From: a phage
DNA length: 44,937 nucleotides
NCBI GenBank assembly: GCA_025700225.1
Contig: GCA_025700225.1_4339.1
Direction: 5' to 3' (one strand)
The notes beneath the pieces are model-generated. The model was not told the origin of the DNA. It was given only the letters and a program-made list of their open reading frames with translations, and searched no databases. Both the position numbers and the translations under genes were made by a program. This document shows, piece after piece, positions 24,679-33,464 of this stretch (positions are counted from its first letter, which is position 1; the number at the start of each line of letters is the position of its first letter).

Positions 24679-26991
24679 CTACTTAAAGCCAGGTGCGTTT
24701 CTTGTAGCCTTCCTCGCTTTCGATATTTTGCTGTTGCTATTCTGCAAAGAGGCGGCCACTTGCTCTTCTATGATGATACGTAAACGTCCTTCATCGTCCT
24801 GTTCAACGCTGGTGTTGCCAATTTGTGCGCTGGTGTTATTTATAATGCTGATATTGGCTGGGCCGGAAGAAGACCCGTTTTGCCCCATAATCTCTTTCAT
24901 TTGCTGCGCGGTGCGGACACGTGACGCCCCCGCTGGCATAATTACCTCAGGCTTACCGCGTTCTGCGATGGTAGATGCTTGCCCTGCGGATAACTGACCA
25001 CCCTGCTCACGTGCCGACCGGATAGCTGAAACCTGCGCCATGCCCGCACCAACGGCAGCGGCAGCGGCTACAGGGGCCAGGAACGGGCCAACTACAGGGA
25101 TAGCCGCCGTGGACTTGTACGCCTCGATAGCTGCGGTGTAAGTGGCTATGGTGGCCTGTACGATAGCGAATGCCTTATACGCGCCAGAGGCCTCGCCCAA
25201 CGCAGACCCGATGTTTGAGGCCATGTTACCGAAGGCGGTTGCCGTTGCGTCGGCACGCTTGGTTGCGTATTGCTCATTGATGGCGTTAAGCGCGGCCTGA
25301 TACTGCTTCTCACTAATAAGCCCCTGCTCACGGTACTTATCAGCTACCGCCAATTTCTGCTGTTCCTGGATGTCGAGAAGCTCAAGCTCAGTAGCGTTCT
25401 GGCCCATAATCTGAGCCATGAAGTCGTCGCCTTTCTGTTGCTTTTCCTGGGCTTCTTTCTGGCGTTTGTCCAGTTCATCTTGTCTGGCCTGCTCGGCTGT
25501 GAGCATAATTTGAGTTTTGGCGTTTTCGTACTGCTGCTGGCTTATCGTTCCGGCGCGGTTGAACTCCTCCAGTTTCGCCAGTTTCTGTTCTTCTGCCGCC
25601 GTGATACGAGAAATTTCGTCTCCAGTTGTGCGGTCAACCGTAGCGAGGAAATCTTCCGCCGCTTTTTTCTGACGTTGTGCTGCCGTTTCTTCACGTTTGG
25701 CCTGCGCCGCCAGACGTTTCTCGTTCGATTTAGCCTCTCGGTCTGCCTTCGCTTTTTCGGTCGCGTCGATGCGAGCGATGTCTTGCTGCGCTTCCGCATC
25801 CCGGGCCGCGTTATACGCGGCTATCTGCTCTTTGGTGACAGCGTCACGTTTAGCGAATGCCTGCTTATCAAGTTCAGCTTGCGCCCGGATACGCTCACGG
25901 TCGCTTAAGATGGCAATTTGCTGATTCTTAACGATAGCTTCGTTCTGTTCCTGGAATCTCTGCGTGGTTGAGTTAACGTTACGACCGAGATTCTTTTGGG
26001 CCTCCGCGGCGGCATTTGCTGACTTCTCTGCGTTTTCCAGTGCCGTTGCATTTTTGTTGGCGTTGTCCGTCAGGCGGATAAGTTCCGGGTTCAACTGTTT
26101 TGTGTTACCTAGCCAGTCGGTAAACACATCGGCGATGCGACGGGCATTCTCGGCAGTTGGCGCTTTGTTAAACGCGCTCTGCGCCGCTATCATCTCCAGC
26201 GCCTGGTCACGGTTAACCCCAAACTTACCGCTAAGCTCTGCGATATTCTGCGCCAGCATGTTGACGCCTACGATGTTACCCTCGTAAGTGCCCCCGAGTT
26301 TTTCTAACGTGTCGCCTACATCCGCACCTTTAGAGACCAATGCATCATACTGGCTGATAGCTGATGCTGTGGATGCTTTCCATGTCTCCCATGATTCTGC
26401 GTCCTCACGAACAGCTTTAGCTGTTTGCTGTGCGATAAGGTCTGCGTTAGCCTTAGCCAGAGCAAGCTGAGTCTCCGCCGCTTCTCGGCTTATTTGGGTA
26501 AGCTGTATGAGGCCGTCTGTCAGTTCGAGAGAGCCGGACGCCGTTTGCTGGAAGGTGTCTTTTAACTGTTTCTGCGCGGCTTCGAGGTCTTTTGAACTAC
26601 CTTCTGCTTCGGTTAGCGATTTGTACAGGACACCGCCAACAGCCGACGCAAGCGCAATTACAGCCCCAAGCACCGCCCCACCAGGGCCAAAAGCACCCGC
26701 AAGCTGCGAGCCTTGTTGCCCGATTGCTACGAATGCGGACGTACCGGACTGCAACTGGACAACCATGTCCTGTACCTGGAAGCCAACCTGCCCTGCGGCG
26801 TTACGGAATTTAGCGAAACCGTCAGAGGCCGCTTTAGAGGTAGCTGTGTTAACTTTATTAACATCTGGGGTCAGCTTGTTTACTGCGGTATCCGCACGGT
26901 CTGCAGACGACGTCATAGCGTCAAGCTGTTTGGCAGCTACGTCAGCACCTTCTGTTTTTACTCTGGCGATTAGGGAAGCCGTATCAGCCAT
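24679..26991 (-). CDS. tail tape measure protein
   Basis: about 770 aa; Ala/Gln/Lys-rich coiled-coil throughout; ATG at 26991 preceded by GAGGG (track ORF begins at a TTG, 27006). Confidence 0.85.
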   Translation of the reverse strand: MADTASLIARVKTEGADVAAKQLDAMTSSADRADTAVNKLTPDVNKVNTATSKAASDGFAKFRNAAGQVGFQVQDMVVQLQSGTSAFVAIGQQGSQLAGAFGPGGAVLGAVIALASAVGGVLYKSLTEAEGSSKDLEAAQKQLKDTFQQTASGSLELTDGLIQLTQISREAAETQLALAKANADLIAQQTAKAVREDAESWETWKASTASAISQYDALVSKGADVGDTLEKLGGTYEGNIVGVNMLAQNIAELSGKFGVNRDQALEMIAAQSAFNKAPTAENARRIADVFTDWLGNTKQLNPELIRLTDNANKNATALENAEKSANAAAEAQKNLGRNVNSTTQRFQEQNEAIVKNQQIAILSDRERIRAQAELDKQAFAKRDAVTKEQIAAYNAARDAEAQQDIARIDATEKAKADREAKSNEKRLAAQAKREETAAQRQKKAAEDFLATVDRTTGDEISRITAAEEQKLAKLEEFNRAGTISQQQYENAKTQIMLTAEQARQDELDKRQKEAQEKQQKGDDFMAQIMGQNATELELLDIQEQQKLAVADKYREQGLISEKQYQAALNAINEQYATKRADATATAFGNMASNIGSALGEASGAYKAFAIVQATIATYTAAIEAYKSTAAIPVVGPFLAPVAAAAAVGAGMAQVSAIRSAREQGGQLSAGQASTIAERGKPEVIMPAGASRVRTAQQMKEIMGQNGSSSGPANISIINNTSAQIGNTSVEQDDEGRLRIIIEEQVAASLQNSNSKISKARKATRNAPGFK

Positions 26992-27256
26992 CTTCTCTGC
27001 CCTCAAATATTCCGTCTAAGCCCATGATAACCTCGGCTTCGAACAAACTTATGCCGTAACCGGCGACATCACGAAACGCTACCAAATCTTGCCATTTGAG
27101 CGCATCGCGCGGGATTATAACGATAGTATCATCTGTTTCGCGCTGTAGGAATTTAATGGCACGGTATTTCTCGAACACGTCGATAAGAGAAACGGGGCAT
27201 TCAGGCCCCGTCGCTTCTTTCATCTGCGGTTCTTTAATCACGCCCATTGCAATCAA
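26984..27256 (-). CDS. tail assembly chaperone T-like segment (probable frameshift extension of G)
   Basis: 90-aa ORF in the -1 frame relative to the upstream chaperone; overlaps tape measure start. Confidence 0.45.
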   Translation of the reverse strand: MIAMGVIKEPQMKEATGPECPVSLIDVFEKYRAIKFLQRETDDTIVIIPRDALKWQDLVAFRDVAGYGISLFEAEVIMGLDGIFEGREDG

Positions 27257-27345
27257 AGCCGCCTGGTGCCCCGCCGCGATGTCGTCGAATTGCTTACGCT
27301 TGTGACGGTCAACAAAACACCATTGCGCAAATTCATACAGCGCTT

Positions 27346-27762
27346 TTACTTTTCAGATAGTTTCTCGCGGCTATCGGTGTGATGCTTAACTACGGCCTCC
27401 GCCAGCCCACTGTACTGGTCGAATAGGTTAGCCAGCGCCTCTTTGCTGAACGGTTCGTCGAATGACCAACCGGTGACGATTTCCACGGCAAGCTGCTTGT
27501 TCAGGTCCATCACCCGCCAACCCTTCTCATCGTTATAGCGCGCCCAGTTATTCAGCGCCTCGCACTCTTTATCTAATGGCGCAAGTTCTTCCGTAAGGCG
27601 TCGAATTGCCGTTGTGTAGGCGCGGCCTGCGCGAACACCGGCATCGCAATCGGGGCCGATAACCTGCAGCCATTCACCGGAATCTTTACCACTCGGCAGA
27701 AGGATGGGCATTTTAGTGCCTACAGCATGGCGGTCAGCAAAATAAAAATCAGAAAGTTTCAT
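27346..27762 (-). CDS. tail assembly chaperone (G-like)
   Basis: 138 aa; immediately upstream of the T-like ORF and tape measure. Confidence 0.55.
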   Translation of the reverse strand: MKLSDFYFADRHAVGTKMPILLPSGKDSGEWLQVIGPDCDAGVRAGRAYTTAIRRLTEELAPLDKECEALNNWARYNDEKGWRVMDLNKQLAVEIVTGWSFDEPFSKEALANLFDQYSGLAEAVVKHHTDSREKLSEK

Positions 27763-27867
27763 TCTTTAATCCTTTGGTTAAGAGGTTACTGGTTAAGATT
27801 AACGCGCCAGACGGGAACCACCCGCTTTTCGTGTGCGACACTAGGCGCAAACTTATTCTAGCACACT

Positions 27868-27905
27868 ACTTGCACACCCCAATATAATAGGGCACTATTC
27901 ACCTG
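27868..27905. promoter_or_regulatory. promoter-operator motif copy (TTGCAC...TATAAT rightward; TAATAG-N4-CTATTC palindrome)
   Basis: 35 nt upstream of the plus-strand island gene at 27924; reverse reading faces the chaperone gene. Confidence 0.55.
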
Positions 27906-27923
27906 TAACTTACTGAGGAAATA

Positions 27924-28253
27924 ATGATGCGTAAATTAGTATTAGCTCTGGGGTTTATGTCTTTTGCTGCTTTCGGGTCCCCGTGCGAACAGGTATTTAG
28001 TGAATCTGTTCTTATGACTTCTGGCGTGCTTGAGAAAGCCGACATTACTATCGTAAAGGCATTTAGGGACTCTACAGTTCGTGAATGCGAGGCCGCCGTA
28101 GAGGTCGGTAAATCAGGCCTACCTCCGCAGGCCGTAACATACACGGTAATACGTTCGGTAGAGAAAAACGGGGACGCGTTTTACAGCCTACTGACAGCCA
28201 CCCGCCTGCAAATGGTAGTGACCGGATGGGCAATAGGCGCAGAAAGTAAATAG
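27924..28253 (+). CDS. secreted/periplasmic hypothetical protein (signal peptide)
   Basis: 109 aa; N-terminus MMRKLVLALGFMSFAAFG; two Cys; RBS GAGGA. Confidence 0.6.
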   Translation: MMRKLVLALGFMSFAAFGSPCEQVFSESVLMTSGVLEKADITIVKAFRDSTVRECEAAVEVGKSGLPPQAVTYTVIRSVEKNGDAFYSLLTATRLQMVVTGWAIGAESK

Positions 28254-28318
28254 TCGCCTTTATTTAAATGAATGCACTGTGGTTAAATAGGACAAATCCT
28301 AAACACGAGGAAGTAGGC

Positions 28319-29449
28319 ATGGCCCAGAAGAAAATAACCGACGAACAGTTACAGGAAGAATTGAACGCCGGGATGAAGAATATCGATATCGCCCGTAAAT
28401 ACGGAATCTCAGACCGCGTTATCCGAATCCGTAAAGCGAAGCTGGCGAAGAAAGGTGTAGGCCACGGGCGAGACGTAAGCCACCTTGTACCAGACGGCTA
28501 CAAAATTAAAGGCACGTCGTCTCTGGTGGACGAGTTCGGCAACACCAAATTGCAGTGGGTTAAGACCGACACTGATGCCGAACGGCAGGTCGAGTTGATG
28601 AAAGCTGTAATCGAGGGCATGAAGTCAGAGATTACGCCCGTTGCGCCAGTTAAGGCCGCCAGGACTAAACGCGACGACAAGCTGCTTAACCTGTACACCG
28701 TGTCTGATTTCCATCTCGGCATGTTAGCCTGGGCGGACGAGAGCGGCGACGACTGGGATATGAAAATCGCGGAGGACTTATTTTCACGATGGTTTGACGC
28801 GGCATTCCAGAAAGCACCGGATGCCGGTACGGGAGTTATTAATCTTCTTGGCGACTTAGCTCACTTCGATAGTCTGGATGCCGTTACGCCCGCAAGCGGT
28901 CATGTCCTTGACGCTGACACGCGCTACCAGAAACTTGTTCGCTACATGATTCGCATGGTGCGCCGTGTCGTCGATATGGCACTGGTTAAACATAAGACTG
29001 TTCGCTTGCTTATAGTTCAGGGAAACCACGACGAATCCGGGATGATTTGGCTGGCGGAGATGTTTAGCACACTGTATGACAACGAGCCTCGTGTATTCGT
29101 CGATACGTCGCCGGATGTATATAAGATGGTGCAACACGGCAAAACTACGCTGTTCTTTCACCACGGACATAAGGCACGCTTCGACGCAATCGAGCCTGTT
29201 ATGATTGCCAAGTTCCGCAAAGCGTTCGGCGAGAGCGTCTACAGTTACGCTCATGTAGGCCACCTTCACCACCAGAAGATTGTCGAAAGCCGTAACATGG
29301 TTGTTGAACAACACCGCACCCTGGCTGCTAAAGACGCCTACGCCTCACGCGGCGGATGGATGTCAGGACGAAGTGCAAACGTAATTACTTATAGCGACCA
29401 ATACGGCGAGGTTGCTCGTTTAACTATTTCACCGGAGATGTTGGGATGA
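28319..29449 (+). CDS. calcineurin-like metallophosphoesterase with N-terminal HTH-like region
   Basis: about 376 aa; SDFHLG (DxH), GDLAHFD (GDxxD), GNHDE, FHHGH, GHLHH; N-terminus IDIARKYGISDRVIRIRKAK; start at ATG 28319 with GAGGAAG RBS. Confidence 0.78.
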   Translation: MAQKKITDEQLQEELNAGMKNIDIARKYGISDRVIRIRKAKLAKKGVGHGRDVSHLVPDGYKIKGTSSLVDEFGNTKLQWVKTDTDAERQVELMKAVIEGMKSEITPVAPVKAARTKRDDKLLNLYTVSDFHLGMLAWADESGDDWDMKIAEDLFSRWFDAAFQKAPDAGTGVINLLGDLAHFDSLDAVTPASGHVLDADTRYQKLVRYMIRMVRRVVDMALVKHKTVRLLIVQGNHDESGMIWLAEMFSTLYDNEPRVFVDTSPDVYKMVQHGKTTLFFHHGHKARFDAIEPVMIAKFRKAFGESVYSYAHVGHLHHQKIVESRNMVVEQHRTLAAKDAYASRGGWMSGRSANVITYSDQYGEVARLTISPEMLG

Positions 29450-29934
29450 AAGATATTGTGATTTTCGATTTAGACGGGACATTGGCGGATGGTACTCATC
29501 GTTTACACCTGCTGCCAAAAGACAACTACGGCGAAACCTGGGCGTGGAAGCCTTTTAACATGGCCTGTAAAGATGATGCGCCGATATATGACAACATTCA
29601 CTTGTGCAACACGCTGTGGCACACGGGGATAACCATAATCATACTTACCGGGCGAAGCGACGACGCCGAAGAAGAAACCCGGGAGTGGTTACACAAAAAC
29701 AATGTCAAGTTCGACGTTCTGTTAATGCGTAGCAAACATGACAACAGAAAAGACATCGTAATTAAAGAAGAAGTGTTGCGCGCTATCGGGTTAGAAAGAA
29801 TCTTGTGCGCGTTCGACGATTCGCCCGCGGTGATTAAGCATTTCCGCAGCTTAGGAATCACTACGCACGCGGTTACGGAATACGACTGCAACGGTACTTC
29901 TACACACTTAAAATCACACGGGGGCGATAAATAA
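29446..29934 (+). CDS. HAD-family phosphatase resembling the T4 Pnk 3'-phosphatase domain
   Basis: 162 aa; motif I FDLDGTL, motif II ILTGR, Lys motif, FDDS; C-terminal stretch RKDIVIKEEV...FDDSPAVIKHF parallels T4 Pnk as recalled from memory; ATGA-coupled. Confidence 0.75.
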   Translation: MKDIVIFDLDGTLADGTHRLHLLPKDNYGETWAWKPFNMACKDDAPIYDNIHLCNTLWHTGITIIILTGRSDDAEEETREWLHKNNVKFDVLLMRSKHDNRKDIVIKEEVLRAIGLERILCAFDDSPAVIKHFRSLGITTHAVTEYDCNGTSTHLKSHGGDK

Positions 29935-30488
29935 TGGCTAAGGTAATCATTCTTAACGGCCCTGCAGGTTGCGGTAAAGATACGCTCGCTATGGCGCTGG
30001 TAGAAATGGGCTTCGCGAAAGGAACAACCAGCTTCAAGAATCCAATGTTCAATATCGCTCTCGCGGCATTAGGGCCGGATGCCTATCACGAGTTCCTCGA
30101 TGGTTACGACGACCGGGCGCGGAAAGAAAAGCCAGAAGATTTTCTAAACGGTCTGTCGCGACGTCAGTTCATGATTGCTATCTCTGAACAATTCATTAAA
30201 CCGGTATTTGGTAGTGAGTATTTCGGCAAGTATCTAGCCGAAAACTTGCCCGACGGCGACGAAATTTTCGTAGTGTCCGACGGCGGATTTGCCAGTGAAG
30301 TAGCCCCTATCGTCGCCGCAGGGCATGATGTGCGAATCGTTCGCCTTCATCGTGACGGGTACACGTTTGACGGTGATAGCAGGGGATATCTGTACGATGT
30401 TAGTGGTGTAAAAGATTACGAAGCCTACATCATACCCGGTGACGTTAAATCTAACGTTATAGACATCGCTTTAAAATTAGGTTTGTAA
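29934..30488 (+). CDS. P-loop kinase, dNMP-kinase-like (T4 gp1-like)
   Basis: 184 aa; Walker A GPAGCGKDT; overall pattern resembles phage deoxynucleoside monophosphate kinases; TAATG-coupled. Confidence 0.7.
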   Translation: MAKVIILNGPAGCGKDTLAMALVEMGFAKGTTSFKNPMFNIALAALGPDAYHEFLDGYDDRARKEKPEDFLNGLSRRQFMIAISEQFIKPVFGSEYFGKYLAENLPDGDEIFVVSDGGFASEVAPIVAAGHDVRIVRLHRDGYTFDGDSRGYLYDVSGVKDYEAYIIPGDVKSNVIDIALKLGL

Positions 30489-30516: not shown

Positions 30517-31689
30517 TTATGCGTAGGTGATACGCTGGATAACGATAGACGACTGATACTGGTTGCCGGTGGCCTGGCCTTCAATAGACTGAGTGATTGA
30601 CTCTGGGCCGCCAATCTCAGGTGTAACCGCCGTAAGCTCCGCGCGTTTCAGGCTGAATGACATAGCCCCGTTTACGCCCGCCAGAATAGAGTTAATCTCT
30701 ACCTGTTGCTCGTTGATAAACTTCTGAATCATAGCCATGTCGTACAGCTTACCCGCGATGGAAAAGGTGTTAGCCGCACGGCCTCGTTCAACGAACGCTA
30801 CGTTACTGTTGCCGAGTTCGAACTGGGCGGAGGCACCGTTATTGTTGGTGATGGTCAGCGTGTCGCAACGCAACGGCGACGTACCATCGAACACTGACAC
30901 ATCAACCGAAGAGAACGGCTCGTCGGTGAAGGTGACCGTAGAGAAGTCGGATCCAGCTGGAGGCGCGGTAAGAATCTCCTGACTCAGGCCGATGAACGGG
31001 AAGCTGCCGGTTACCATCGCGTTAACCGCCTGCTCGATGGTAAAGCCAGAGATTTCCACACCTTTGGTCAGCATGTACGCGTCAGGGTTTCCGCACTGGC
31101 CTTTGAACCAGGTCAGGATAGAGAACGTTTTACACGCGTTGCCAGTTTCCAGCTTGTCGCCGGTTTTAGCATCGGTCGTTACAGTTTCTGCGGTAAGCGT
31201 GTGCTGAATACCTGCACCCGTTACGACAAGAGCGGAAACTTCGGTAACGATGAACGGCTTAGCGTTATCTCCAGTCAGACCGGTGAACGCAATCAGGTCA
31301 CCCACTTCAACACCGTCGGTAATGAAGCTGCCAGATGCGCGGGTGAACGTTTTACCGGCCGGCGCTACGGTAATAGAGGCTCCAGTAATCTCGACGCCCG
31401 CCTGCCATGTAGAGGTCATTGCGCCTGCAAGGAAATCATCCTGACTTTTCGAGCTAAGCTCGATGGCGTATTCACCAGTTACCTGTTTGTTACCTGTGCG
31501 GATAGACGTGGTTTCACGGCTGCCGTCCAGTTCGTTGGAGGTCAGCGCGTCGCGCGTTACCGCGGGAACACCGCCAGTATTGCGCAACGGCGACCATACC
31601 GGGGAAGTCGGTGTTACGCCCGGGGTAGTTTCCGCCACATAGAATTGCGCGGTGTTCGCGCCCTTAAAAGGAGTTGTAGCCATATTCAC
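30517..31689 (-). CDS. major tail protein
   Basis: 390 aa; Thr/Gly-rich; positioned after head-tail connector genes and followed by a strong terminator. Confidence 0.65.
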   Translation of the reverse strand: MNMATTPFKGANTAQFYVAETTPGVTPTSPVWSPLRNTGGVPAVTRDALTSNELDGSRETTSIRTGNKQVTGEYAIELSSKSQDDFLAGAMTSTWQAGVEITGASITVAPAGKTFTRASGSFITDGVEVGDLIAFTGLTGDNAKPFIVTEVSALVVTGAGIQHTLTAETVTTDAKTGDKLETGNACKTFSILTWFKGQCGNPDAYMLTKGVEISGFTIEQAVNAMVTGSFPFIGLSQEILTAPPAGSDFSTVTFTDEPFSSVDVSVFDGTSPLRCDTLTITNNNGASAQFELGNSNVAFVERGRAANTFSIAGKLYDMAMIQKFINEQQVEINSILAGVNGAMSFSLKRAELTAVTPEIGGPESITQSIEGQATGNQYQSSIVIQRITYA

Positions 31690-32102
31690 AGCCTCTTGGT
31701 GAATGCAATAAAGTTAATCGACAATGGTCTTTTGGCCCATCCATTTTCTACAATCAGCGGCCCCAGGCTAACCGATTGCACTTCGGCGCAGATGTCGTTA
31801 CGTGAAAAAGACTTACCTGCTTTGAATGCCGTGTTAAGTAAGTCTGCCATTTTATTGATTGGCGCGCTACCTTTCACCGATGCGTAGTTAATGTCCACCT
31901 GATAAATACCAGCGCGTTGCTCTGTGAAAAATAAGTCAGCCTGCTCGGTATCCGCCAGTAGCATGTAGCTAGCCAGGTATGGCGTATCGGTTGACGTCGG
32001 CGCGTCGATATTCTCAAGCGCAACTTTGATGCCGTTGGTGTTTCCGAAGGCTACCAGCGGCACGTCGAACGCTTTGGTTAAGTCCTCAAAGTAGCCCATC
32101 AT
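31686..32102 (-). CDS. tail completion / tail terminator-like protein
   Basis: 138 aa; position immediately upstream of major tail protein. Confidence 0.45.
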   Translation of the reverse strand: MMGYFEDLTKAFDVPLVAFGNTNGIKVALENIDAPTSTDTPYLASYMLLADTEQADLFFTEQRAGIYQVDINYASVKGSAPINKMADLLNTAFKAGKSFSRNDICAEVQSVSLGPLIVENGWAKRPLSINFIAFTKRL

Positions 32103-32494
32103 TTCACCTTGTTGGCTTCTTCATTAATTAGCTGCTGGAAGCGTGACACGTTAGTCCTGACGAAGCCTTGCGGAGCCTGTTGAGACCAACCGTACTCCAG
32201 CCGTTGTGCATACGGCAGGTTATTAGTCAGCGTAAACTCGTGCCAGTCTGCGGCTTTCAGCACGAAACTAGTGGCGTTTCCGGTTGCGGTGTTTCCCGAT
32301 TTATCCGTAGCATCTGTAGTTCCAGAAGCGGGAGTTCCGCCAGACGCCATCCAGTTCATGCGAAAACGCCCGGTGTCTACCGGACTCGCCTTTATAATAG
32401 CGGAAAACAGCTTGATAGACACCTGACGCATCACCGTTTCAGGGTTCTTCTTCGCCTTCTCGACGAACTTAGAGACATCAAGCGCGAAACTCAT
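32099..32494 (-). CDS. head-tail joining protein (HK97 gp10-like)
   Basis: 131 aa; ATGA-coupled in the connector cluster. Confidence 0.5.
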   Translation of the reverse strand: MSFALDVSKFVEKAKKNPETVMRQVSIKLFSAIIKASPVDTGRFRMNWMASGGTPASGTTDATDKSGNTATGNATSFVLKAADWHEFTLTNNLPYAQRLEYGWSQQAPQGFVRTNVSRFQQLINEEANKVK

Positions 32495-32850
32495 TTTCTC
32501 ACCTGAATGAAGTAAGCCACGACATCATCGTTAACCATCTTCTTCTCGATGGCTTCTACCGACCACTGCTCGCCGCCGAATTGCACCTTGTCTTCCATCT
32601 TCGGGACGACGCTGTAATCGGCTTTAACAATCATGTCTCCCGCCTGAATGGTTGTGCCGTTAACCAAGCCCGCGTTAACCGGAACAGGTACGGCTTTCAG
32701 CGGCAGCACTTCATCCGCAGACCAGATGTACTCTCCGAGAACCTCATCCCACACTTTCGAGCCAGCGCGAACCAGAGATACCGTGCTACCGAATTTGGTT
32801 AGCAGGCGTGTACCTACGCCCTGCATACGTTTACTAAAGGCGGTGCTCAT
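32491..32850 (-). CDS. head closure / head-tail adaptor protein
   Basis: 119 aa from ATG 32850 overlapping upstream stop; track ORF extends to 32904. Confidence 0.5.
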   Translation of the reverse strand: MSTAFSKRMQGVGTRLLTKFGSTVSLVRAGSKVWDEVLGEYIWSADEVLPLKAVPVPVNAGLVNGTTIQAGDMIVKADYSVVPKMEDKVQFGGEQWSVEAIEKKMVNDDVVAYFIQVRK

Positions 32851-33464
32851 TACGCGGCCTCCAGTCTCGAGATAACCAGTAGTGCTGACGGTGCGGTACC
32901 CCATGCGGTTACGGTAGCCGCTTGCGGATATACGCCGCCGAAGTTCGTCCCGGCGCTGTCACGCATAATCTGAACTGCAAATGTTTGCCCTGCGGTCGGG
33001 TTAATCACTACACGGGATTCAATAGGAATGGTGGTTTCCGCGCTAACCAGTTTCGTAGCTGCCGGCGAGCCGTATTGCGCGCCGTTTACCAGAATGCGTG
33101 ATAACAAGATAGACGTGCCGCTGGCCCCTGTTCGCCCGGCCTGTAACTTGATGCGAACGGCGTAGTTACCGGCGGTGTTGAAAGTCACCAGACCCGCCGC
33201 GTTAATCATAACCGGGTCTGAGGCGCTACCTTGCGCGGAACCGAAGGTTAGTTGCAGTGCGGTATCGACAGCGGACGGAGCCTGGGTGACAGTAGACGCG
33301 GCGCGTAGCACCTCAACCTCTTTCACGCCAGGAGTGACATAAATAGGTGAGTCAGCCATTTGAGTGAGAACACCACGTAACTTAGCCGGTGTGATTAGCC
33401 CGGATGTGTTATCCGGCAATTCAGACCCGATTAGCGTAAATATCTCTGTTTTAGTCTTCGCCAT
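32850..33464 (-). CDS. hypothetical virion protein
   Basis: 204-aa ORF in the connector cluster. Confidence 0.5.
   Translation of the reverse strand: MAKTKTEIFTLIGSELPDNTSGLITPAKLRGVLTQMADSPIYVTPGVKEVEVLRAASTVTQAPSAVDTALQLTFGSAQGSASDPVMINAAGLVTFNTAGNYAVRIKLQAGRTGASGTSILLSRILVNGAQYGSPAATKLVSAETTIPIESRVVINPTAGQTFAVQIMRDSAGTNFGGVYPQAATVTAWGTAPSALLVISRLEAA

What the first reader, a model, noticed from the sequence alone, without database searches (positions are those of the whole stretch)
26984..27350. Candidate programmed -1 frameshift joining tail chaperone G to the T-like ORF
The G-like chaperone gene ends at 27346. The next ORF (26984-27256) is in the -1 frame and, traced upstream, stays open back to the last two codons of G. 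The only overlap is therefore at the sequence CTG-AAA-AGT-AA (G frame ...tct gaa aag taa), where an A-AAG lysine codon sits next to the stop codon, a context known to promote tRNA-Lys slippage in E. coli. A slip there would produce the G-T fusion that lambda-like phages need for tape-measure assembly. No canonical X-XXY-YYZ heptamer is present, so the site is atypical.
Basis: inference. Interest (0 to 1): 0.45.

Follow-up and report, generated by a model that had tools for sequence, protein, structure and literature searches.

The report
Tail chaperone frameshift at A-AAG-stop
This E. coli phage almost certainly makes its longer tail-assembly chaperone by a ribosome slipping back one base on the last lysine codon (A-AAG) just before the stop codon; the site is unusual in form, but the same fusion is already annotated in sister phages, so it is a sound and largely ordinary finding.

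Summary
On the minus strand, the G-like chaperone (27762..27346, 138 aa) ends GAA AAG TAA. The -1 frame is closed by TGA at 27355-27353 and then stays open from 27352 to 26984. A shift can therefore only happen on A_AAG next to the stop.

The window is a Kagunavirus-like (Guernseyvirinae) coliphage. The fusion this slip predicts (…SEK|VKALY…, 259 aa) is already deposited for phages K1H and fFiEco02.

Comparative evidence for a frameshift:
- A_AAG followed directly by TAA or TAG is invariant in 14 lineages, down to 44% protein identity.
- The preceding codon keeps its third-base A although its amino acid changes (E/V/A/G).
- Synonymous variation drops to zero over about 17 nt, against 0.54 overall.
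- The T-frame protein is conserved right from the junction, and no start codon there is conserved.
- Distant homologues carry canonical heptamers such as T_TTT_TTC.

No conserved downstream stimulatory structure was found.

Best explanation: tRNA-Lys slips from AAG to AAA, probably while the ribosome waits at a weak stop codon, giving a small fraction of G-T fusion. Nothing here was tested experimentally. Novelty is low. The tetramer-plus-stop form is atypical for tail chaperones.

The parts
27346..27762 (-). G-like tail assembly chaperone gene (138 aa; ATG 27762, stop TAA 27348..27346)
   Evidence: ORF list. Pfam PF08748 Phage_TAC_4, E 1e-8. phrog_15027 positions 1-138, E 2.6e-65.
27349..27352 (-). 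Shift site A_AAG: A 27352 is the third base of Glu137 GAA, and AAG 27351..27349 is Lys138. Proposed tRNA-Lys re-pairing from AAG to AAA (27352..27350).
   Evidence: Sequence. Invariant in all 45 unique relatives / 13 effective lineages plus Shashou. The base before AAG is always A although codon 137 varies between GAA, GTA, GCA and GGA.
27346..27348 (-). G stop codon TAA directly 3' of the shift codon (candidate 'shifty stop'); the +4 base is A
   Evidence: In 14 lineages the stop is always adjacent to AAG: TAG 10, TAA 4, TGA 0, and the +4 base is always A or C. Window baseline: TAA 33 / TGA 23 / TAG 6, with +4 T the commonest.
27353..27355 (-). TGA in the -1 frame that closes that frame just upstream of the shift site. 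It comes from a window-specific synonymous TCT Ser136; relatives have TCG.
   Evidence: the overlap is 7 nt in the window and 19-208 nt in relatives.
26984..27349 (-). T-like segment read in the -1 frame after the shift (GTA 27349..27347 through stop TGA 26986..26984; 121 aa). GT fusion = complement(join(26984..27349, 27349..27762)), 259 aa.
   Evidence: Pfam PF23812 Phage_TAC_18, E 8.6e-18. phrog_15027 positions 138-259. The N-terminal motif KV.ALY.[FY]A.W is conserved from the junction. Identical-junction fusions are deposited.
27337..27354 (-). Island of zero synonymous variation, G.A AAG TAR NN GCG CTG T. It includes a 3' GCGCTG (27343..27338) whose role is unexplained.
   Evidence: synonymous-difference fraction 0.0 at codons 137, 138, 139, 141 and 142, against 0.54 overall. 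Shashou has GCGTTG, so the CTG is not absolute.
24679..26991 (-). Tape measure protein gene (ATG 26991, 770 aa). Its start overlaps the T stop (ATGGCTGA).
   Evidence: phrog_1538, E 7.6e-198. Same gene boundaries as K1H gp23.

Best explanation
This is the G/GT tail assembly chaperone pair of a Kagunavirus-like coliphage. Most ribosomes translating G stop at TAA (27348..27346) and release the 138-aa G protein. A minority shift -1 on A_AAG: the single E. coli tRNA-Lys decoding AAG (27351..27349) re-pairs with AAA (27352..27350). The next codon read is then GTA (27349..27347), and translation runs on through the T frame to 26984. The product is a 259-aa G-T fusion (…REKLSEK-VKALYEF…). By analogy with lambda gpG/gpGT, its G part would bind the tape measure protein encoded immediately downstream and its T part would recruit the tail tube protein. 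I think the slip most likely happens with peptidyl-tRNA-Lys in the P site while the A site holds a slowly decoded stop codon in a weak +4 context (a 'shifty stop'). No downstream RNA structure would then be needed. Shown here: the reading-frame geometry, homology of both parts, nucleotide-level conservation of A_AAG plus stop, and the deposited fusion annotations. Inferred: that the fusion is made, its ratio to G, the P-site/stop-pause mechanism, and the chaperone roles.
For: Geometry: the -1 frame is open only from 27352, so a productive shift must occur on GAA/AAG. Homology: G matches PF08748, T matches PF23812, and the two halves match one 259-position PHROG fusion profile. The tape measure gene follows directly. 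Prior annotation: K1H and fFiEco02 carry 2-piece joins of 779 nt, which implies -1. Their deposited proteins equal the predicted fusion exactly. Conservation: A_AAG+TAR is found in 47 IMG/VR relatives at 44-100% G identity, in SETP3 and in Shashou. Synonymous variation is 0.0 at codons 137-139, 141 and 142, against 0.54 overall. Lys138 is always AAG, and codon 137 is always GNA with varying amino acid. The T-frame protein is conserved from the junction, and the first ATG/GTG/TTG lies 92 nt downstream in the window and 140-281 nt downstream in L016/L028/L029. Remote homologues have T_TTT_TTC, A_AAT_TTT or T_TTT_TTT in the G/T overlap, and their T parts hit the same Pfam family. Literature: A_AA.G is the most shift-prone Z_ZZ.N tetramer in E. 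coli (PMC4066793). A_AAG shifting depends on the 5' NNA codon and is used by IS1222, and 'shifty stops' are a known phenomenon (PMC5009743). Termination efficiency depends on the +4 base, with U the strongest (PMC5289835 abstract). The window encodes no tRNA that could alter Lys decoding.
Against: There is no experimental evidence for the fusion protein in this phage or, as far as I could find, in any Guernseyvirinae phage. In reporter assays the A_AAG tetramer alone was barely above background (about 0.15%) and reached 5.6% only with the IS3 pseudoknot. Here no conserved downstream structure was found: the RNAalifold energy is about 0, the highest mean pair probability is 0.25, and the window's +3..+102 fold has z = +0.71. 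The rate therefore depends on an untested stop-codon effect. Several depositors annotate T as a separate gene (Bas71; Shashou). The Shashou authors state that there is no canonical slippery sequence. The A/C preference at +4 could also reflect amino-acid preference at T codon 140.
Confidence: 0.85

Rival explanations
1. T is made as a separate protein, not as a fusion. Translation would start on its own or by termination-reinitiation, either at the near-invariant CTG/TTG codon five bases after the G stop (27340..27338) or at TTG 27256 / ATG 27247.
For: Bas71 annotates a 118-aa T starting at that CTG. phrog_4557 (118 positions) begins there. Shashou has TTG at that codon, annotated with an RBS. 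The codon shows no synonymous variation in 13 lineages. The Pfam T domain proper begins at about residue 33, near TTG 27256.
Against: Reinitiation gives no reason for Lys138 to be always AAG, or for the preceding base to be always A across four different amino acids. The window has no Shine-Dalgarno-like sequence before CTG. CTG is a very poor initiator in E. coli (own knowledge). Residues upstream of TTG 27256 are strongly conserved as protein. Several lineages have no ATG/GTG/TTG for 140-281 nt. Remote homologues carry canonical heptamers in the overlap. A free T could not bridge the tape measure and the tube in the lambda model (established knowledge, Xu et al. 2013/2014 as cited in PMC5009743).
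Confidence: 0.08
2. The -1 shift is on the same A_AAG but follows the classical tetramer route. The A-site tRNA-Lys slips during translocation, driven by a downstream mRNA structure that starts at the conserved GCGCUG 5 nt after the shift site. The adjacent stop would be incidental.
For: GCGCUG sits at the spacing typical of stimulators and shows no synonymous change in 13 lineages. In several relatives the minimum-energy fold pairs GCGCUG with CGGCGC near +85 around an inner stem: L013 z -4.75, L019 z -2.66, L015 z -2.05. Tetramers needed a stimulator in reporter assays.
Against: The window itself lacks the partner sequence and folds no better than shuffled sequence (z +0.71). No column-conserved pairs were found. 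Shashou has GCGUUG. The stop stays adjacent to AAG in all 14 lineages, although overlaps of 19-208 nt would allow other positions.
Confidence: 0.25
3. The frame change arises at the RNA level: RNA polymerase slips on the A run and produces mRNAs with one extra A.
For: There is an A4 run at the junction in the window.
Against: The run is only 3-4 A. Lineages with GTAAAG, GCAAAG or GGAAAG have A3. Known transcriptional slippage needs much longer homopolymer runs (own knowledge; reviewed in PMC5009743).
Confidence: 0.01

Closest known systems
Escherichia phage K1H ORF19A/19B (YP_009168854.1 / YP_009168853.1) and fFiEco02 FE2_025/026: annotated tail assembly chaperone and its frameshift product
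   Same: Same genes at about 95% DNA identity, the same 138-aa G, the same A_AAG-TAA junction and the same fusion length (259 aa). The deposited fusion sequences equal the product predicted by a slip on A_AAG.
   Different: Those records have TCG at Ser136 and a 25-nt overlap. The window has TCT, which puts TGA in the -1 frame and narrows the overlap to 7 nt. These are annotations, not experiments.
Phage lambda gpG/gpGT -1 frameshift (Levin, Hendrix and Casjens 1993; Xu, Hendrix and Duda 2004, 2013, 2014)
   Same: Two ORFs directly upstream of the tape measure gene. The second is in the -1 frame and has no start of its own. tRNA-Lys slips on an AAG codon near the end of G. A low-level fusion is expected (role described in PMC5009743).
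   Different: Lambda uses the heptamer G_GGA_AAG (own knowledge), where the P-site tRNA can also re-pair. Here only the tetramer is conserved (T_GAA_AAG in the window), and the shift codon is the last sense codon, abutting the stop. The Pfam families found here are PF08748 and PF23812; lambda's own families were not compared. The tail tube gene is separated from G by four opposite-strand genes.
Z_ZZ.N tetranucleotide -1 frameshifting on A_AAG in E. coli (IS3-derived constructs, IS1222 G_CGA_AAG, B. subtilis cdd A_CGA_AAG)
   Same: The same minimal motif and the same tRNA-Lys AAG-to-AAA re-pairing. The 5' NNA codon has a known influence (PMC4066793, PMC5009743).
   Different: Those cases rely on a pseudoknot, hairpin or upstream SD-like stimulator. 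Here none is conserved, and an adjacent stop codon is conserved instead.
'Shifty stop' frameshifting (Weiss et al. 1987; prfB +1 at CUU_UGA)
   Same: A slow-to-decode stop in the A site next to a slippery P-site codon (PMC5009743; PMC6815119).
   Different: prfB shifts +1 and needs an upstream SD-like stimulator. Here the shift is -1, the stop is UAA or UAG and never UGA, and no conserved SD-like element was seen upstream.

Membership tests
Phage tail assembly chaperone G/GT pair expressed by programmed frameshift (Xu et al. 2004 class) | Two same-strand ORFs immediately upstream of the tape measure protein gene | tested here: met
   G is 27762..27346, T runs to 26984, and the tape measure gene starts at 26991, overlapping the T stop.
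Phage tail assembly chaperone G/GT pair expressed by programmed frameshift (Xu et al. 2004 class) | The pair lies directly downstream of the major tail (tube) gene | tested here: not met
   The tube-like gene 31689..30517 (-) is separated from G by four plus-strand genes at 27924..30488. The same layout occurs in K1H and Shashou. Gene order is kept but contiguity is not.
Phage tail assembly chaperone G/GT pair expressed by programmed frameshift (Xu et al. 2004 class) | The second ORF is in the -1 (or +1) frame, overlaps the end of the first, and lacks a conserved start codon of its own | tested here: met
   -1 frame with a 7-nt overlap. There is no ATG/GTG/TTG for 92 nt in the window and up to 281 nt in relatives, while the protein is conserved from the junction.
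Phage tail assembly chaperone G/GT pair expressed by programmed frameshift (Xu et al. 2004 class) | A slippery sequence in the overlap, conserved among relatives | tested here: met
   A_AAG is invariant in 14 lineages with zero synonymous variation.
Phage tail assembly chaperone G/GT pair expressed by programmed frameshift (Xu et al. 2004 class) | Canonical X_XXY_YYZ heptamer | tested here: not met
   The window has T_GAA_AAG. Relatives have G_GAA_AAG, G_GTA_AAG, A_GCA_AAG, C_GCA_AAG or G_GGA_AAG. Only remote homologues have true heptamers.
Phage tail assembly chaperone G/GT pair expressed by programmed frameshift (Xu et al. 2004 class) | Sequence membership of both parts in tail assembly chaperone families | tested here: met
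   PF08748 at 35.9 bits (cut-off 21.1) and PF23812 at 64.7 bits (cut-off 27). phrog_15027 and phrog_313.
Phage tail assembly chaperone G/GT pair expressed by programmed frameshift (Xu et al. 2004 class) | The fusion protein is made at a low fixed ratio and is required for tail assembly | not testable with these tools
   Needs proteomics, reporter assays and phage genetics.
Z_ZZ.N tetranucleotide -1 frameshift site (A_AAG type) | A_AAG in the zero frame, with the AAA codon available in the -1 frame | tested here: met
   27352..27349.
Z_ZZ.N tetranucleotide -1 frameshift site (A_AAG type) | A downstream structure or upstream SD-like stimulator at functional spacing | tested here: inconclusive
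   No conserved structure was found, and the window fold has z +0.71. A conserved GCGCUG lies 5 nt downstream, and some relatives fold well. No conserved SD-like element lies upstream.
Shifty-stop frameshifting | A stop codon immediately 3' of the slippery codon, conserved | tested here: met
   The stop is adjacent in all 14 lineages: TAG 10, TAA 4.
Shifty-stop frameshifting | Frameshift efficiency depends on the stop codon and on release-factor level | not testable with these tools
   Needs reporter assays with stop-to-sense substitutions and RF1/RF2 titration.

The most novel reading that the evidence does not exclude
The conserved ~17-nt module GNA_AAG-UAR-(A/C)N-GCGYUG may be a self-contained, structure-independent -1 frameshift cassette. 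In this reading, competition between release factor (mostly RF1-only UAG, with a weak +4 base) and tRNA-Lys slippage sets the G:GT ratio. The invariant 3' GCG YUG would act through an undescribed contact, such as the mRNA entry channel or rRNA, rather than by forming a hairpin. That would make it a natural bacterial example of -1 'shifty stop' recoding used for stoichiometry control.
Probability: 0.2. Interest if true: 0.45.

Novelty: already known. Interest (0 to 1): 0.22.

Why it matters
For annotation, this phage should carry a joined GT coding sequence, complement(join(26984..27349, 27349..27762)), rather than a free-standing 'hypothetical protein' before the tape measure gene. Public records for this clade disagree. 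Some carry joins, some annotate separate ORFs, and one genome announcement states that there is no canonical slippery sequence. The comparative evidence here argues for the frameshift. For recoding biology, the clade offers a clean natural case. A heptamer found in remote homologues is replaced by a bare A_AAG abutting a stop codon, and the window's own TGA confines the shift to a single codon. That makes it a convenient system for measuring how much a stop codon alone can stimulate -1 slippage in E. coli. It does not open a new kind of mechanism.

Tried and rejected
1. Downstream stimulatory structure. RNAalifold on 13 lineage representatives over five windows gave about -0.1 kcal/mol and no real helix. 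Averaged base-pair probabilities peaked at 0.25. Single-sequence z-scores ranged from -4.75 to +1.49, and the window scored +0.71. A conserved stimulator is rejected for the window and left open for some relatives.
2. Rfam scan of 26500..28000 found no frameshift element.
3. Independent start for T. No conserved start codon was found, so this is kept only as a minor rival.
4. Transcriptional slippage is rejected because the A run is only 3-4 nt.
5. A phage tRNA that alters Lys decoding: none is encoded.
6. A solved-structure relative of GT by sequence: none at E below 0.4.
7. Literature. 'Kagunavirus' plus 'frameshift' returned nothing, and the 'Jerseyvirus' plus 'frameshift' hits were not about this site. 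PMID 25663216 (the Jerseyvirinae proposal cited in the Shashou record) is not held. PMC3483164 mentions K1H only for capsid and tail similarity.
8. I did not run structure prediction, the large protein searches or the metagenome scan. The question was settled without them.
Full report
**What is there**

All genes discussed are on the minus strand. The G-like ORF runs 27762..27346 (138 aa) and ends …cta tct gaa aag TAA. The next ORF listed mechanically, 27256..26984, is in the -1 frame relative to G. Reading that frame upstream gives TGA (27355-27353), then AAA (27352-27350), GTA (27349-27347), AAA, GCG, CTG and onward without a stop down to TGA 26986-26984.

The -1 frame and the G frame therefore overlap by only 7 nt. 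A productive shift can only occur while GAA/AAG is being decoded. There is no X_XXY_YYZ heptamer; the sequence is T_GAA_AAG. The tape measure gene starts at ATG 26991, overlapping the T stop, and encodes 770 aa. Only the hyphenation 'CTG-AAA-AGT-AA' is not the productive frame.

**Identity of the genes**

- G matches Pfam PF08748 (Phage_TAC_4, E 1e-8).
- The -1 product matches PF23812 (Phage_TAC_18, E 8.6e-18).
- Against PHROGs, G matches positions 1-138 and the -1 product positions 138-259 of one 259-position profile, phrog_15027 'tail assembly chaperone'. That profile was evidently built from fusion proteins with this junction.
- The downstream gene is a tape measure protein (phrog_1538, E 7.6e-198).
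- DNA similarity places the window in Kagunavirus / Guernseyvirinae coliphages, 95-97% identical over this region to phages such as L AB-2017, NTEC3, K1H and fFiEco02.

**Already annotated elsewhere**

RefSeq K1H (NC_027994.1) and fFiEco02 (MT711523) each carry a two-piece joined CDS of 779 nt. That length implies a -1 shift. They are labelled 'tail assembly chaperone' / 'frameshift product'.

I built the fusion predicted by a slip on A_AAG (…REKLSEK|VKALYEF…, 259 aa) for those two phages and looked it up by exact sequence. Both are in the public collection, as ADA82316.1/YP_009168853.1 and QNO11587.1. The same junction has therefore been annotated by depositors.

Other depositors disagree. 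Bas71 annotates T as a separate 118-aa protein starting at the CTG five bases after the G stop. [quoted passage not shown] Shashou nevertheless has cag GAA AAG TAG ac GCG TTG at the junction.

**Comparative test of the shift site**

A scan of IMG/VR with the G protein returned 50 loci.

- In all 47 loci whose G is 44-100% identical and complete, G ends in A_AAG followed directly by TAA or TAG. The -1 frame then runs 119-121 codons (one contig-truncated locus shows 46).
- The codon before AAG is GAA, GTA, GCA or GGA. The amino acid changes, but the third base stays A.
- A codon-level analysis on 13 effective lineages shows a synonymous-difference fraction of 0.0 at codons 137 (GNA), 138 (AAG, never AAA), 139 (GTA), 141 (GCG) and 142 (CTG). 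The overall value is 0.54, and neighbouring conserved residues give 0.4-0.8.
- This roughly 17-nt island (G.A AAG TAR NN GCG CTG T; window 27354..27337) marks a nucleotide-level signal, not a protein-level one.
- In the window, only 1 of 113 mechanical ORFs of at least 80 aa ends in A_AAG plus a stop, and that ORF is G.

**Is T translated on its own?**

The T-frame protein is conserved from the first post-shift codon (KV.ALY.[FY]A.W.[FY]V…KFD.I..GH) in all relatives. The first ATG/GTG/TTG in that frame lies 92 nt past the G stop in the window. In L016, L028 and L029 it lies 140-281 nt past the stop.

The only candidate start close to the junction is the CTG (TTG in Shashou and in L013/L014). 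The window has no Shine-Dalgarno-like sequence before it. A reinitiation model also does not explain why Lys138 must be AAG preceded by A. I keep this as a minor rival (0.08).

**Remote homologues**

Four loci with G only 29-35% identical lack the A_AAG-stop. In the G/T overlap, 18-51 nt before the G stop, they carry canonical heptamers: T_TTT_TTC (L049, L051, L053), A_AAT_TTT (L052) and T_TTT_TTT (L053). L053 also has T_TTG_GGC abutting its stop. Their -1 products hit the same Pfam PF23812.

So this G/T family is expressed by -1 frameshifting generally.

**Mechanism**

A_AA.G is the most shift-prone Z_ZZ.N tetramer in E. coli. Frameshifting reached 5.6% with the IS3 pseudoknot and was about 0.15% (near background) without a stimulator (PMC4066793). 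The review PMC5009743 describes four relevant points:
- A_AAG shifting as a known class;
- its dependence on the 5' NNA codon;
- its natural use in IS1222;
- the single E. coli tRNA-Lys, and 'shifty stops'.

I looked for a stimulator:
- RNAalifold found nothing conserved.
- Averaged pair probabilities peaked at 0.25.
- The window's first 100 nt after the stop fold no better than shuffles (z +0.71), although L013, L019 and L015 fold well (z -4.75, -2.66, -2.05).
- No upstream SD-like element is conserved.

What is conserved instead is the stop codon itself. It is always adjacent to AAG, even though relatives have overlaps of 19-208 nt. It is TAG in 10 lineages, TAA in 4 and never TGA, and the +4 base is always A or C. 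The window's proxy genes use TAA 33, TGA 23 and TAG 6, with +4 T the most common. Termination efficiency depends on the +4 base, with U strongest (PMC5289835 abstract).

I therefore favour P-site slippage of peptidyl-tRNA-Lys while a weakly recognised stop occupies the A site, followed by capture on GUA. This step is inferred. The alternative is A-site slippage driven by a structure beginning at GCGCUG. It gives the same protein and is kept as a sub-rival (0.25). Transcriptional slippage is rejected because the A run is only 3-4 nt. The window encodes no tRNA.

**What the window adds**

Relatives have TCG at Ser136. The window has TCT, which creates TGA in the -1 frame and also removes the partial G_GA re-pairing option for the P-site tRNA-Glu. 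If this phage is viable, as its intact genome suggests, the tetramer plus stop is sufficient. The shift site is naturally mapped to one codon.

**Unexplained**

The synonymous invariance of GCG and, apart from Shashou and L013/L014, of CTG, 5 nt after the shift site, has no demonstrated partner or role.

**Comparison and novelty**

Functionally this works like lambda gpG/gpGT. By sequence it belongs to the PF08748/PF23812 chaperone families rather than lambda's own (own knowledge; lambda's proteins were not compared). Two typical features are not met: a canonical heptamer, and contiguity with the tube gene, because four opposite-strand genes intervene.

The site type (A_AAG tetramer, shifty stop) is known from IS elements and synthetic constructs. 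The fusion is already deposited for sibling phages. I rate it 'already known', with low-moderate interest. Its value lies in settling inconsistent annotation and in offering a tidy natural model for stop-stimulated -1 slippage. No experimental evidence for the fusion exists in the literature I could search.

**Confidence**

- 0.85 that a -1 frameshift on A_AAG produces a G-T fusion.
- About 0.55-0.6 that the adjacent stop is the main stimulator.

Noticed in passing
window 27787..27851 (minus strand), 5' leader of G; also L031:1412-1476, L045:1414-1477, L001:1450-1514: A near-threshold match to Rfam int-alpA RNA (RF02996): 31.6-34.7 bits against a gathering score of 35.8, E down to 2.9e-5. It lies just upstream of the G start, at the same place in relatives whose G is only about 50% identical. 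An alignment of 13 leaders gives an outer stem GCGCC/GGCGC enclosing two hairpins. The first hairpin shows compensatory changes (GC versus CG 6:5; UA/GC/CG/AU). An extended -10-like TGcTAGAAT (27863..27855) sits just upstream, so the element may be the 5' end of the G-GT-tape measure transcript.
   Followed up: partly
window 32485..32500 (minus strand); junction of ORFs 32904..32491 and 32494..32099: RefSeq K1H annotates a second two-piece join here (ORF12/13, head-closure Hc1-like plus tail completion/Neck1-like). phrog_17193 (250 positions) is matched by the two window ORFs at positions 1-119 and 120-250. The junction reads gtg aga aaa TGA g, that is A_AAA plus a stop, with an overlapping ATGA start. 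It could be plain stop-start coupling or a second tetramer-plus-stop -1 site.
   Followed up: partly
window 27337..27343 (minus strand): GCG CTG T, starting 5 nt after the shift site, shows no synonymous change in 13 lineages, although Ala and Leu codons vary freely elsewhere. Only Shashou and L013/L014 depart from it (Shashou GCGTTG; L013/L014 keep GCG CTG but TTG replaces the next TAY codon). No pairing partner is conserved.
   Followed up: partly
window 27191..27212 (minus strand), inside the T segment: A terminator-like hairpin GACGGGGCC-TGAAT-GCCCCGTT (8 pairs, 6 G-C) followed by TCTCTTATCG. It encodes …TGPECPVS…. Some relatives share the GPECP motif but others do not (for example L015), so it may be incidental.
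   Followed up: no
window 27924..30488 (plus strand): A four-gene opposite-strand cassette interrupts the tail module between the tube-like gene (31689..30517, minus) and G. It encodes a hypothetical protein, a DNA repair exonuclease / metallophosphoesterase-like protein, a polynucleotide kinase-like protein and a dNMP kinase-like protein. The layout is conserved in K1H and Shashou, so G-GT-tape measure needs its own promoter.
   Followed up: partly
L049, L051, L052, L053 (IMG/VR contigs), about 1833-1890 in each locus: Remote homologues of the same G/T pair use canonical heptamers (T_TTT_TTC, A_AAT_TTT, T_TTT_TTT) 18-51 nt before the G stop. L053 also has T_TTG_GGC abutting its stop. This points to evolutionary turnover of the slip site within one chaperone family.
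   Followed up: partly
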